Virus record (IMG/VR): IMGVR_UViG_2874945390_000001
Span: 1-13,756 of that record
DNA: 13,756 bases
Source of the DNA: a virus
Taxonomy: Duplodnaviria > Heunggongvirae > Uroviricota > Caudoviricetes
Direction: 5' to 3' (one strand)
The position numbers and the translations under genes were made by a program. Positions 3,355 to 6,300 of the stretch are shown here, in pieces. Position 1 is the first letter of the stretch. Every line of letters starts with the position of its first letter. The notes beneath the pieces were generated by a model. It did not search any database and was not told the DNA's origin. It saw nothing but the letters and a program-made list of their open reading frames with translations.

Positions 3355-3459
3355 GATTCCACCTCTCCGGTTTTAACGTAAGCGCCCCATCAGCGACGTC
3401 TTGTGAAAATTGTCCTGTCTGGCAACAATCGCGCCCATCTATATAGATGGACACGAACG

Positions 3460-4134
3460 ATGAATTCCCAGACAAAAAAAGATATTCCCTGCTTCCGTTC
3501 TTATTTGCCTGATGCCCTGCGTTTAAGATTTGAAGATAAACTGACCATCCGGGCCATCGCTCAGCGTCTGGGTCTCAGTCATTCCACAATACATACGCTT
3601 TTTCAGCGATTTCTTGCATCCGGTATCGCATGGCCATTGCCCGATTCAGTTTCATTCGCTCAACTTGACGCCATCCTTTATGCCAACAGAAAGAAGGAAT
3701 TAACAGAGCCTCAAATCAGAGAAGGCTCATGGCGAAAAGAACGGCGAACCAGCTATAGCCGTGAATTTAAGGTCCGTCTGGCTAAGCAGGCGTTACAGCC
3801 TGGGGCTGTTGTTGCCCGGATCGCCAGAGAACACGATATCAATAATAACCTGCTGTTTAAATGGAAAAGCCAGTACGAGGACGGCTTACTGAGCGATGAT
3901 GACATACAGGAATGCATGCCTGTCCCGGTGGCACTGACTGATACGCCGGAGCCGACCAGACCAGTTACAAATCCCTTCTGGCGTAACAAGCATGATGAGC
4001 GCCCTGAGGGGGCTCCCGGAAACGTCCCACGGTGCGAGCTGCATCTTAAATCAGGTGTGGTAAAACTGTTTGACCCTCTCACTCCGGAACTGTTACGGGC
4101 GCTAATCCGCGAAATGAAAGGGGGTATCCGATGA
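3460..4134 (+). CDS. tnpA: IS66-family accessory protein TnpA (orf1) with N-terminal HTH extension
   Basis: C-terminal half (SYSREFKVRLAKQALQPGAVVARIAREHDINNNLLFKWKSQYE) is IS66 Orf1-like. The start is ambiguous: GTG at 3403 or ATG at 3460. Confidence 0.7.
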   Translation: MNSQTKKDIPCFRSYLPDALRLRFEDKLTIRAIAQRLGLSHSTIHTLFQRFLASGIAWPLPDSVSFAQLDAILYANRKKELTEPQIREGSWRKERRTSYSREFKVRLAKQALQPGAVVARIAREHDINNNLLFKWKSQYEDGLLSDDDIQECMPVPVALTDTPEPTRPVTNPFWRNKHDERPEGAPGNVPRCELHLKSGVVKLFDPLTPELLRALIREMKGGIR

Positions 4135-4478
4135 TAACGCTGCCGACCGGTACCAAAATCTGGATCATCGCTGGCATCACAGATATGCGTTGTGGCTTCA
4201 ATGGCCTGGCTTCGAAGGTGCAGAACACGCTGAAAGATGACCCGTTCTCCGGGCATATCTTCGTCTTCCGGGGCCGCAGTGGCAAAATGGTGAAAATACT
4301 GTGGGCCGATCGTGACGGGTTATGCCTGTTCGCCAAACGCCTGGAACGGGGCCGCTTCGTCTGGCCGGTGACCCGGGAAGGGAAAGTGCACCTGACGCCA
4401 GCTCAGTTATCCATGCTACTGGAGGGGATCGCGTGGCAACATCCCAAACGGACAGAACGGCCTGGCATCCGGATATAA
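4131..4478 (+). CDS. tnpB: IS66-family TnpB (orf2)
   Basis: 115 aa. MITLPTGTKIWIIAGITDMRCGFNGLA...DPFSGHIFVFRGRSGKMVKILWADRDGLCLFAKRLERGRFVWP matches the conserved IS66 Orf2 signature. Start overlaps the tnpA stop. Confidence 0.9.
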   Translation: MITLPTGTKIWIIAGITDMRCGFNGLASKVQNTLKDDPFSGHIFVFRGRSGKMVKILWADRDGLCLFAKRLERGRFVWPVTREGKVHLTPAQLSMLLEGIAWQHPKRTERPGIRI

Positions 4479-4539
4479 CCCGTGATAAAACAAGGGAATG
4501 AACAATTAACTCCCCGATGATATTGAGCTGCTTAAAGCC

Positions 4540-5972
4540 ATGTTGCGTAAGCAACAGAGTCGGCTTCGACAGTATGCCTGTCAGGTCGCGGGCTATGAGC
4601 AGGAAATTGAACGGCTGAAAGCGCAACTCGACAGGTTGCGTCGTATGTTGTTCGGCCAGAGTTCAGAGAAAAAGCGTCATAAGCTTGAAAATCAGATCCG
4701 ACAGGCAGAAAAACGACTGTCGGAACTGGAAAACCGGCTGAACACAGCCAGAAATCTTCTGGAAGATGCATCGTCAGTCACAGATTCACCTGACACCAGT
4801 CCCCCGTCAGAAAACCCGATCGCCAGTAAGCCTGAATCCCCGGGACGAAAATCTTTACGAAAACCGCTGCCGGCAGAACTTCCCCGGGAGACACATCGCC
4901 TTCTGCCTGCTGAAACCAGTTGCCCGGCCTGTGGAGGTGTTCTGAAAGAAATGGGGGAAACAATCTCAGAGCAACTGGATATCATTAATACCGCCTTTAA
5001 AGTTATCGAAACCATACGTCCCAAACTGGCCTGTAGCCGGTGTGATGTCATCGTTCAGGCACCACTTCCCCCTAAACCGATCGAACGCGGTTATGCCAGT
5101 GCAGGGTTACTTGCACGGATCCTGGTCAGCAAATATATGGAACATATCCCTTTATATCGCCAGTCAGAAATATACGCGCGACAGGGCGTGGAGCTGAGCC
5201 GTAATACCATGGTGCGCTGGGTATCAGAAATGGCAGACAAACTCCGTCCTCTGTATATAGCGCTGAATGACTATGTTCTGGAGGCAGGAAAGGTGCACGC
5301 AGATGACACTCCGGTGAAAGTACTGGCCCCGGGGAACGGAAAGACGAAAACGGGTCGTCTGTGGGTATACGTCAGGGATGATCGTAATGCGGGTTCATCC
5401 CTGCCGGCAGCCGTCTGGTTCGCGTATTCGGCAGATCGCAAAGGAGAACATCCGCAGCTCCACCTGGCAAAGTATCAGGGCGTACTGCACTGCAGGCTGA
5501 TGCCTATGCAGGTTATAACGTACTGTACGAAACGGGCGGGGTGAAGGAAGCCGGGTGCCTGGCCCACGCCCGCCGAAAAATCCATGACGAGGATGTGCGC
5601 CGTCCGACAGAAATGACTCAGGAAGCGCTCAGACGGATAGCAGAGTTATACGACATAGAAGCGGAGATACGTGGCAGTCCGGCAGAGGAACGGCTTGCAG
5701 TCAGAAAAGCCAGAAGCGTCCAGTTGATGCAGTCGTTGTACGACTGGATACAGTTGCAGAGGAAAACGCTGTCGAAACATGCGGAGATGGCGAAGGCGTT
5801 CGACTATATCCTGAATCACTGGAATGCGCTGAACGAGTTCTGTCGTGACGGCTGGGTGGAAATAGACAACAACATCGGTGAAAACGCGTTACGATCGGTG
5901 GCGGTTGGAAGAAAAAATTATCTCTTTTTCGGCTCAGACAAGGGAGGAGAAAGTGCGGCGATCATCTACAGG
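4540..5972 (+). pseudogene. tnpC: IS66-family transposase TnpC (orf3), frameshifted and C-terminally truncated
   Basis: The two ORFs 4540..5544 and 5541..6038 are consecutive parts of one transposase. Tandem CTGCA-CTGCA at 5485-5494 shifts the frame; the other frame restores the conserved ...[22 protein letters not shown]... Similarity is lost after about 5970. Confidence 0.85.
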
Positions 5973-6051
5973 AGTGATTTATTAAATTTTCCTGAAGTGT
6001 GCATGTTTATTTTTACCCCCTCGTTTAAAAAGTTTTGAGTTGTGCCTCCCC

Positions 6052-6286
6052 TTGTCTACCTTATCTACCTTATCTACCTTGCTGGCCCTCATGCCAGTAA
6101 TGGCGCGGCTTTCAGCGGGGTAGAGTGCTTTTATCCACTATCTACCCCGTGTCTACCTCCCTGTCTGATTCAGGTAAAATCAGGTAGAGAGGGTAGATAG
6201 TGGGTAGACAGTAAAAAAAGCTGTCTACCTAACTTAATGTACTGAATTAAATGTATTTTCCTTTACTCAGGTAGACAGGGTAGACA
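6052..6286. repeat. Iteron array: putative replication origin for the adjacent primase/helicase
   Basis: About 12 copies of an 8-9 bp motif in both orientations: TTRTCTACC three times in tandem at 6052-6078, again at 6138-6157 and 6221-6229; GGTAGAGA/GGGTAGATA/GGGTAGACA at 6183-6211 and 6269-6285. AT-rich flanks; lies directly downstream of the primase stop (6301). Confidence 0.65.
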
Positions 6287-6300
6287 GCAATTACAAAAAA

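What the first reader, a model, noticed from the sequence alone, without database searches (positions are those of the whole stretch)
6038..6300. Dense iteron array between the primase stop and the IS66 remnant: probable origin of replication
About a dozen copies of GGTAGAYA / TRTCTACC in both orientations, including a triple tandem repeat, lie in AT-rich DNA directly downstream of the primase/helicase gene. This matches the usual origin placement in P4 and PICI replication modules. The IS66 remnant abuts it and may have removed part of the origin or adjacent sequence.
Basis: partly seen in the sequence, partly recalled or inferred. Interest (0 to 1): 0.55.

Follow-up and report, generated by a model that had tools for sequence, protein, structure and literature searches.

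The report
Known satellite-island replication origin, orphaned
The repeat cluster is the replication origin of an EcCICFT073-type phage-inducible chromosomal island, a site already mapped by experiment in E. coli CFT073; here the origin is intact but stranded, because an insertion sequence splits the gene for the protein that should fire it.

Summary
Twelve GGTAGA cores lie at 6053-6286, six in each orientation, and nowhere else in the window. Ten of them are full GGTAGAYA matches, against 0.34 expected by chance. The interpretation also holds, but the site is already known. The stretch is about 94-97% identical to the intergenic segment of EcCICFT073. Fillol-Salom et al. 2018 (PMC6092414) cloned that segment as "ori" and showed it is needed for Pri-driven plasmid maintenance. 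Their published primers delimit a fragment equal to window ~5985-6296.

Independent support:
- The hexamer cores stay invariant in origins that are only 56-74% identical overall (76% of core columns invariant against 28% of other columns).
- The repeat sequence changes with the initiator. A 48%-identical Pri (EcCIRM13514) has the same layout built from TGTTCACC, the P4 type I iteron.
- The Pri C-terminal domain is homologous to the P4 alpha origin-binding domain (PDB 1KA8).

- In P4, the element directly downstream of alpha is crr, not ori.
- The deletion linked to the truncated ISSfl3 (IS66 family) removed a small downstream gene and stops 81 bp short of the array.
- pri is split by an IS600 insertion at codon 49.

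Ordinary, low interest.

The parts
6270..6286 (+). Pri-proximal iteron pair, GGTAGACA x2 with 9-bp spacing, 14 bp from the pri stop codon
   Evidence: Cores invariant in all 8 diverged origins. Contained in the published EcCICFT073 primer pri-4c.
6230..6269 (.). 40-bp AT-rich stretch (23% GC) bracketed by inverted iterons; candidate melting site
   Evidence: Composition. Fillol-Salom 2018 Fig. [quoted passage not shown] Melting here is inferred, not shown.
6222..6229 (-). Single iteron (TGTCTACC on the + strand) facing the proximal pair across the AT-rich stretch
   Evidence: Inverted repeats I17 and I24. Conserved in 5 of 8 lineage sequences.
6183..6210 (+). Three iterons, GGTAGAGA, GGTAGATA and GGTAGACA (spacing 9 and 11 bp), followed by an A-tract at 6211-6221
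   Evidence: Two of the three cores are invariant in the 8 aligned origins.
6159..6181 (.). Central dyad with degenerate half-sites (TGTCTGA / TCAGGTAAA); centre of a 28-nt imperfect palindrome formed by the flanking iteron sets
   Evidence: Inverted repeats I1 and I12. The only Rfam matches are sub-threshold miRNA-hairpin hits that reflect this palindrome.
6139..6157 (-). Two iterons, TATCTACC and TGTCTACC on the + strand, 11-bp spacing
   Evidence: Core invariant in 8 of 8 sequences for one copy and 7 of 8 for the other.
6119..6126 (+). Single iteron variant GGTAGAGT
   Evidence: Core invariant in 8 of 8.
6080..6118 (.). GC-rich spacer (64% GC). It holds a conserved non-iteron block at 6091-6115 (TGAAAGCCGCGCCATTACTGGCATG, read in the direction of pri) and a small hairpin, CTGGC-N6-GCCAG, at 6082-6097. 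Role unknown.
   Evidence: 20 of 25 block columns are invariant in A5. The degenerate pattern is found in 101 IMG/VR contigs, always with 9-11 GGTAGA cores nearby.
6053..6078 (-). Distal iteron set, TGTCTACC, TATCTACC, TATCTACC on the + strand, period 9. The third copy is a 9-bp gain specific to this window.
   Evidence: Relatives have two copies. None of 58 other unique origins has three.
5972..6052 (-). Conserved leader, ribosome-binding site (GAGGGGG) and first 11 codons (ATG at 6004-6002) of the small gene downstream of ori. The rest of the gene is deleted.
   Evidence: Alignment to the intact island L001 8993-9025. Conservation.
3379..5971 (+). ISSfl3 (IS66 family). The left inverted repeat is present and tnpC is frameshifted. 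The last 133 nt of tnpC and everything 3' of it are missing. The truncation is joined to a 217-bp deletion of island DNA.
   Evidence: Pfam, left end GTAAGCG..., 99.1% identity to ISSfl3, and the intact copy continues past the match end. The island gap is L001 8776-8992.
6301..7911 (-). pri (initiator) codons 49-584: D5_N, SF3-helicase (DUF5906) and C-terminal Pox_D5 winged-helix domains
7912..9175 (+). IS600 (1264 bp) inserted in pri codon 49
   Evidence: 99.9% identical to annotated IS600. tblastn places codon 49 on both sides of the insertion.
9176..9322 (-). pri codons 1-49, separated from the rest of the gene by IS600

Best explanation
Window 6053-6286, within the conserved intergenic segment ~5985-6296, is the cis-acting vegetative replication origin of an EcCICFT073-type Gram-negative phage-inducible chromosomal island.

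Proposed mechanism, with the status of each step:
1. The island's initiator Pri is a P4-alpha-like SF3 helicase. It carries a C-terminal winged-helix domain homologous to the P4 origin-binding domain (shown by homology).
2. That domain recognises the 8-bp words TRTCTACC/GGTAGAYA (inferred from co-variation of word and domain, and from what is known of P4).
3. The words are packed about one helical turn apart (9 or 11 bp) in sets of opposite orientation. These sets flank a 40-bp AT-rich stretch, and a second group forms a large imperfect palindrome (shown by the sequence).
4. Bound Pri assembles into helicase rings, opens the AT-rich DNA, and the excised island replicates after helper-phage induction (inferred).

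The homologous fragment is required for Pri-driven replication in EcCICFT073 (shown in the literature). In this window the origin is complete but orphaned, because pri is split by IS600 and the island is further damaged by ISSfl3. The origin could fire only if a matching Pri were supplied in trans.
For: 1. Homology to a tested origin. The region is about 94% identical (column identity) or 97% (pairwise) to EcCICFT073. The supplementary primers of PMC6092414 map so that the pri-ori plasmid ends at L002 ~7306 and the pri-delta-ori plasmid at L002 7000. The tested 'ori' is therefore L002 7001-7306, equal to window ~5985-6296. The paper reports colonies at the restrictive temperature with pri-ori, none with the rep mutant, and significantly fewer with delta-ori.
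2. Statistics. 10 GGTAGAYA against 0.34 expected, all in 234 bp. CFT073 and a Shigella flexneri island each have 9 copies, again only downstream of pri.
3. Footprint. In 8 origins from 4 lineages (56-74% identical), 55 of 72 core columns are invariant against 51 of 184 others, Fisher p = 2e-12. The cores also persist in 7 representatives below 85% identity drawn from 58 unique IMG/VR origins.
4. Co-variation. EcCIRM13514 Pri (48% identical) has the same layout of repeats built from TGTTCACC. EcCI042, which has a RepA-family helicase instead, uses AAAGTGAGG. All GGTAGA-type origins pair with a C-terminal domain 82-99% identical to the window's. The TGTTCACC-type domain is 33% identical to the window's but 44% identical to that of P4 alpha, whose iteron is TGTTCACC.
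5. The C-terminal domain matches PDB 1KA8, the P4 alpha origin-binding domain, at E = 6.7e-7. The helicase core matches the SaPI Rep structure 7OLA at E = 1.7e-15.
6. Later literature treats 'ori downstream of pri' as a standard feature of Gram-negative PICIs.
Against: No experiment has been done on this exact sequence. In the CFT073 experiment, deleting ori reduced colony numbers but, as worded, did not abolish them. Binding of Pri to these 8-mers, and the site of melting, have not been shown for any member as far as I could find. The figure with the published iteron sequences (Fig. 2a) is not held as text, so I could not confirm that the authors' iterons are exactly these words. The footprint statistic treats columns and related sequences as independent. 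Here pri is disrupted, so the origin is probably inactive in its present host.
Confidence: 0.9

Rival explanations
1. The array is a crr-like cis enhancer. It binds the initiator, as the P4 crr does directly downstream of alpha, while replication actually starts at a separate origin elsewhere in the island.
For: In P4, the iteron block that directly follows alpha is crr, and the origin proper is 4.5 kb away. The Pri C-terminal domain is homologous to that of P4 alpha.
Against: There is only one cluster of the word in the window, in intact EcCICFT073 and in the S. flexneri island. The CFT073 test plasmid carried only pri plus this segment and still replicated.
Confidence: 0.04
2. The repeats are mainly transcriptional operators. 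A regulator, or Pri itself, would bind them to control read-through from pri into the downstream operon (small gene, ssb, perC, capsid genes), and replication would be secondary.
For: The array sits between two co-oriented genes. The leader and ribosome-binding site of the downstream gene next to it are highly conserved. Initiator-bound iterons often autoregulate in other replicons (general knowledge).
Against: The scan for promoter-like sites finds no excess (1 found, 0.7 expected) and no terminator. The words change with the initiator's DNA-binding domain, not with any regulator. The fragment is functionally required for replication in CFT073. This role could coexist with origin function rather than replace it.
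Confidence: 0.05
3. The repeats are a chance or IS-derived cluster produced by the neighbouring ISSfl3 or IS600 events.
For: The array lies 81 bp from a truncated IS end. One 9-bp unit is an extra copy specific to this window.
Against: The same array is present in about 500 E. coli genomes and about 100 IMG/VR contigs that lack the IS. None of 200 shuffles reaches the observed count.
Confidence: 0.01

Closest known systems
EcCICFT073 ori (Gram-negative PICI origin; Fillol-Salom et al. 2018, ISME J, PMC6092414)
   Same: Same position directly downstream of pri. Same 8-bp words, order and orientation. About 94-97% nucleotide identity. The cognate Pri C-terminal domain is 99% identical.
   Different: The window has one extra 9-bp iteron in the distal set. 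Its pri is split by IS600, and the gene downstream of ori is deleted together with the right end of an ISSfl3.
EcCIRM13514-type PICI origin (E. coli O145:H28 RM13514)
   Same: Same syntax: a pair of words just after the pri stop, an AT-rich stretch, then an inverted word, a triplet and inverted sets. The initiator is homologous, 48% identical.
   Different: The word is TGTTCACC instead of TGTCTACC. The C-terminal domain is only 33% identical. The conserved GC-rich block is absent.
Satellite phage P4 ori and crr with alpha protein (type I iteron TGTTCACC)
   Same: 8-bp iterons in both orientations, spaced about one helical turn apart. The initiator has D5_N, SF3-helicase and a C-terminal winged-helix origin-binding domain (1KA8, E = 6.7e-7). 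An iteron block lies directly downstream of the initiator gene.
   Different: The word differs at 2 of 8 positions. P4 needs two separated elements, ori and crr, about 4.5 kb apart, whereas here there is one cluster. P4 alpha carries a Zn-ribbon and a Toprim primase domain that Pri lacks.
SaPI origins (SaPIbov1/SaPI1) with Rep helicase
   Same: The origin lies directly downstream of rep, with short iterons in two sets flanking an AT-rich region. The Rep and Pri helicase cores are homologous (7OLA, E = 1.7e-15).
   Different: No nucleotide similarity. In SaPIs pri and rep are often separate genes, and the Rep origin-binding domain is different. The SaPI details are taken from the literature and were not tested here.

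Membership tests
Gram-negative PICI (EcCICFT073-type) replication origin | Lies directly downstream of the pri/rep gene, in the same transcriptional orientation as the rest of the island | tested here: met
   The pri stop is at 6301-6303 and the first iteron ends at 6286. The gene order matches the intact islands L001 and L002.
Gram-negative PICI (EcCICFT073-type) replication origin | [quoted passage not shown] | tested here: met
   GGTAGACA x2 (6270-6286) and an inverted TGTCTACC (6222-6229) plus further sets flank 40 bp of 23% GC. Feature as defined in PMC6092414.
Gram-negative PICI (EcCICFT073-type) replication origin | Sequence homology to the fragment whose deletion impaired Pri-driven plasmid maintenance | tested here: met
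   About 94-97% identity over L002 7001-7306, the difference between plasmids pJP2027 and pJP2028.
Gram-negative PICI (EcCICFT073-type) replication origin | A cognate initiator encoded next to it | tested here: met
   The Pri homologue is 93% identical to the intact L001 protein over residues 49-584, and its C-terminal domain is 99% identical to that of CFT073. The gene is interrupted by IS600 at codon 49, so it is probably non-functional here.
Gram-negative PICI (EcCICFT073-type) replication origin | Supports Pri-dependent autonomous replication | not testable with these tools
   Shown only for the CFT073 homologue in the literature.
P4 ori/crr system | Type I iteron TGTTCACC | tested here: not met
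   The word here is TRTCTACC. P4 has 11 exact GGTGAACA copies in ori and crr.
P4 ori/crr system | Two separated cis elements (ori and crr), both carrying the iteron | tested here: not met
   A single cluster in the window and in intact relatives, against two clusters 4.5 kb apart in P4.
P4 ori/crr system | Initiator with an alpha-type C-terminal winged-helix origin-binding domain | tested here: met
   1KA8 match at E = 6.7e-7 covering residues 2-92 of 100. Pfam Pox_D5 in both proteins.
P4 ori/crr system | Initiator carries a Zn-ribbon and a Toprim primase domain | tested here: not met
   Pfam finds these domains in P4 alpha but not in the full-length Pri of L001, even at E <= 0.1.
Plasmid-type iteron origins (Rep_3/pi/TrfA class) | Direct repeats of 17-22 bp, conserved DnaA boxes, and a Rep_3-type initiator | tested here: not met
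   The units are 8-9 bp and occur in both orientations. The only DnaA-box-like site (TTATCCACT, 6129-6137) is not conserved in diverged origins. The initiator is an SF3 helicase.

The most novel reading that the evidence does not exclude
The origin may contain a second, undescribed recognition element. The 25-bp GC-rich block at 6091-6115 is as conserved as the iterons across origin lineages that are otherwise 56-74% identical, and it is absent from the TGTTCACC-type origin. It could be a loading or priming site, or a host-factor site, specific to this Pri lineage. Pri itself has no recognisable primase domain, so such a site could bear on how priming is achieved. Separately, the pair of origins with identical syntax but words differing at 2 of 8 positions (TGTCTACC and TGTTCACC) would be a natural specificity switch for the alpha-type winged-helix domain.
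Probability: 0.25. Interest if true: 0.35.

Novelty: already known. Interest (0 to 1): 0.14.

Why it matters
It adds little. It confirms that a degraded island, carrying ISSfl3 and IS600 and so probably from a Shigella or enteroinvasive E. coli background, still holds a complete EcCICFT073-type origin. That origin could respond to a matching Pri from a co-resident island. The comparative data assembled here may help anyone studying PICI replication specificity: invariant cores, a word swap that tracks the C-terminal domain, and a conserved non-iteron block. They extend the 2018 description rather than change it.

Tried and rejected
- An exact search of genome contigs for the ISSfl3/origin junction found nothing. 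No complete E. coli RefSeq genome carries the window's IS configuration. The source organism therefore stays unidentified.
- The search for related loci with a Pri alignment returned only 3 loci, because both peptide patterns came from the N-terminus. I used E. coli genomes and an IMG/VR pattern scan instead.
- Rfam gave only sub-threshold miRNA-hairpin matches, which reflect the palindromic arrangement of the iterons.
- The promoter and terminator scan found nothing above chance.
- The DnaA-box-like TTATCCACT at 6129-6137 was rejected because it is not conserved.
- RNAalifold on the conserved block gave no convincing shared structure.
- A literature search for the P4 iteron word returned only irrelevant hits.
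- NC_011745.1 (ED1a) is not in the collection.
- The IMG/VR set was selected through the conserved block, so it cannot serve as independent evidence for the block's own conservation.

Full report
**Observation**

GGTAGAYA occurs ten times in the 13,756-bp window, all between 6053 and 6286. Dinucleotide-preserving shuffles give a mean of 0.34 and never more than 2. The hexamer core GGTAGA occurs twelve times, six on each strand, and nowhere else in the window. The two extra copies are GGTAGAGT (6119) and GGTAGAGA (6183).

The triple tandem repeat lies at 6053-6078 with period 9. Neighbouring copies start 9 or 11 bp apart, about one helical turn. The sets form inverted arrangements, including a 28-nt imperfect palindrome (6130-6157 against 6192-6219).

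The region is 44% GC against 52-54% in the flanks. It contains a 40-bp stretch of 23% GC (6230-6269) bracketed by inverted iterons. It also contains a 39-bp spacer of 64% GC, so "AT-rich" holds only in part.

**Context**

On the minus strand, a 534-codon ORF with D5_N, DUF5906 (SF3 helicase) and Pox_D5 domains stops at 6301-6303. On the plus strand, IS66-family genes run up to 5971.

About 500 complete E. coli genomes carry the same intergenic DNA without the insertion sequences. One intact example (L001) is an ~11-kb island between phoQ and roxA/ycfD. Its gene order is int, a regulator, pri, the 288-bp iteron region, a 92-codon gene, ssb, perC, and capsid genes.

Three differences from that island stand out:
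- **IS66-family element.** It occupies 3379-5971 and is ISSfl3 (99.1% identity). Its tnpC is frameshifted, and the last 133 nt of tnpC and everything 3' of it are missing.
- **Deletion.** 217 bp of island DNA next to that truncated end are gone, which removes most of the 92-codon gene.
- **pri.** It is split at codon 49 by a 1264-bp IS600.

The deletion endpoint (5971/5972) is 81 bp from the outermost iteron. The leader, ribosome-binding site and first 11 codons of the small gene remain. The array itself is complete. It even has one more 9-bp unit than any of 58 other unique origins examined.

**What it is**

The island type is EcCICFT073, the model phage-inducible chromosomal island (PICI) of Gram-negative bacteria, which also integrates at ycfD-phoQ. 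Fillol-Salom et al. [quoted passage not shown]

They cloned EcCICFT073 pri-ori into a thermosensitive vector. The plasmid gave colonies at the restrictive temperature, the rep mutant gave none, and deleting ori significantly reduced the number.

Their supplementary primers can be placed on the CFT073 sequence:
- The pri-delta-ori insert ends at CAAATTATAAAAACGCGTCGC, which is L002 6980-7000 and window 6297-6317.
- The pri-ori insert ends about 306 bp further on, at L002 ~7306, which is window ~5985.
- Another of their primers contains CAGGTAGACAGGGTAGACAGC, which is the proximal iteron pair.

The experimentally defined ori is therefore the counterpart of window ~5985-6296. The two sequences are about 94% identical by column identity and 97% pairwise. 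[quoted passage not shown]

**Independent evidence gathered here**

*Footprint.* Eight origins from four lineages, 56-74% identical between lineages, were aligned. Of the hexamer-core columns, 55 of 72 are invariant, against 51 of 184 other intergenic columns (Fisher p = 2e-12, with the caveat that related sequences are not independent). The cores also persist among seven representatives below 85% identity, drawn from 58 unique IMG/VR origins.

*Co-variation.*
- EcCIRM13514 has a Pri that is 48% identical. It has the same layout, namely a pair of words after the stop codon, an AT-rich stretch, an inverted word, a triplet and inverted sets. The word, however, is TGTTCACC/GGTGAACA: nine exact copies plus three with one mismatch within 230 bp.
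- EcCI042 has a RepA-family helicase in place of Pri and uses AAAGTGAGG.
- Every GGTAGA-type origin is paired with a Pri C-terminal domain 82-99% identical to the window's.
- The TGTTCACC-type domain is 33% identical to the window's but 44% identical to that of P4 alpha. The annotated P4 type I iteron is the same TGTTCACC.

*Protein homology.* The last ~90 residues of Pri match PDB 1KA8, the C-terminal domain of P4 alpha, at E = 6.7e-7. From my own knowledge (Ziegelin et al. 1993 and 1995; Yeo et al. 2002), this is the winged-helix domain that binds the type I iterons. The helicase core matches the SaPI Rep structure 7OLA at E = 1.7e-15.

**Mechanism**

Shown:
- the position, number, orientation and conservation of the words;
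- the homology to a functionally required fragment;
- the homology of the Pri C-terminus to a known origin-binding domain;
- the co-variation of word and domain.

Inferred:
- the Pri C-terminal domain binds the 8-mers;
- closely spaced, oppositely oriented sets nucleate helicase rings;
- the 40-bp AT-rich stretch (6230-6269) is the first DNA to open;
- the excised island replicates from here after helper-phage induction.

In this window the origin is an orphan, because pri is interrupted.

**Rival explanations**

- *A P4-crr-like enhancer.* In P4, the block directly downstream of alpha is crr and the origin is 4.5 kb away. This is unlikely here. There is one cluster only, and the CFT073 test plasmid carried nothing but pri and this segment.
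- *A mainly transcriptional operator role.* This gets no support from the promoter and terminator scans and does not explain co-variation with the initiator. It could still coexist with origin function.
- *Chance or IS-derived origin.* This is excluded by the IS-free relatives.
- *A plasmid-type iteron origin.* The unit size, the orientation and the initiator class do not fit. The one DnaA-box-like site (6129-6137) is not conserved.
- *An RNA element.* No Rfam family matches.

**Comparison with known systems**

- It is a member of the EcCICFT073-type PICI origins. Every sequence-level criterion was met, and only the replication assay itself could not be run.
- It works like the P4 alpha-iteron system and shares the origin-binding domain, but it is not a P4 ori/crr. 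The word differs at two of eight positions, there is one element rather than two, and Pri lacks the Zn-ribbon and Toprim primase domains of alpha.
- It shares its architecture, though not its sequence, with SaPI origins.

**Verdict**

The feature is already known, and interest is low.

The only points that go slightly beyond the literature I could read are these:
- the conserved non-iteron block at 6091-6115;
- the clean word swap between two Pri lineages;
- the absence of a recognisable primase domain in "Pri".

Noticed in passing
window 6091-6115 (within the GC-rich spacer 6080-6118): A 25-bp non-iteron block (TGAAAGCCGCGCCATTACTGGCATG, read in the direction of pri) is about as conserved as the iterons: 20 of 25 columns are invariant across origin lineages that are 56-74% identical. 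It is absent from the TGTTCACC-type origin. A degenerate pattern for it finds 101 IMG/VR contigs, all with 9-11 GGTAGA cores nearby. No function is known.
   Followed up: partly
window 6301-7911 and 9176-9322; full-length homologue at L001 9314-11068: The protein annotated as 'DNA primase family protein' has D5_N, SF3-helicase and Pox_D5 domains, but no Zn-ribbon, Toprim or other recognisable primase domain, unlike P4 alpha. Its N-terminal ~150 residues have no Pfam match and are mosaic among alleles (48-96% identity, against 92-99% for the helicase core).
   Followed up: partly
window 7912-9175: A full-length IS600 (1264 bp, 99.9% identity) is inserted in pri codon 49, and that codon is readable on both sides of the insertion. 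Together with ISSfl3, this suggests a Shigella or enteroinvasive E. coli background. No complete E. coli RefSeq genome and no GTDB representative genome carries this configuration.
   Followed up: partly
window 3379-5971 and the junction at 5971/5972: ISSfl3 has an intact left end (GTAAGCG...), a frameshift in tnpC (ORFs 4540-5544 and 5541-6038), and lacks the last 133 nt of tnpC and everything 3' of it. The truncation coincides with a 217-bp loss of island DNA that removes most of a 92-codon gene of unknown function upstream of ssb.
   Followed up: yes
L005 8055-8300 (E. coli O145:H28 RM13514 PICI): A PICI origin built from the exact P4 type I iteron TGTTCACC, in the same layout as the GGTAGA-type origin. 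Its Pri C-terminal domain is closer to that of P4 alpha (44%) than to the window's (33%).
   Followed up: partly
window 6071-6078 or an adjacent unit of 6053-6078: The third 9-bp iteron of the distal set is unique to this window among 59 unique origins compared. It is probably a slippage gain.
   Followed up: yes
window 6129-6137: TTATCCACT matches the DnaA-box consensus at 8 of 9 positions, but it is not conserved in diverged origins. It may simply be a degenerate iteron.
   Followed up: yes
window 9760-9798 and 12462-12498: Short tandem repeats elsewhere in the island: 21 bp x 1.9 copies, and 10 bp x 3.8 copies upstream of the integrase region. They were not examined.
   Followed up: no
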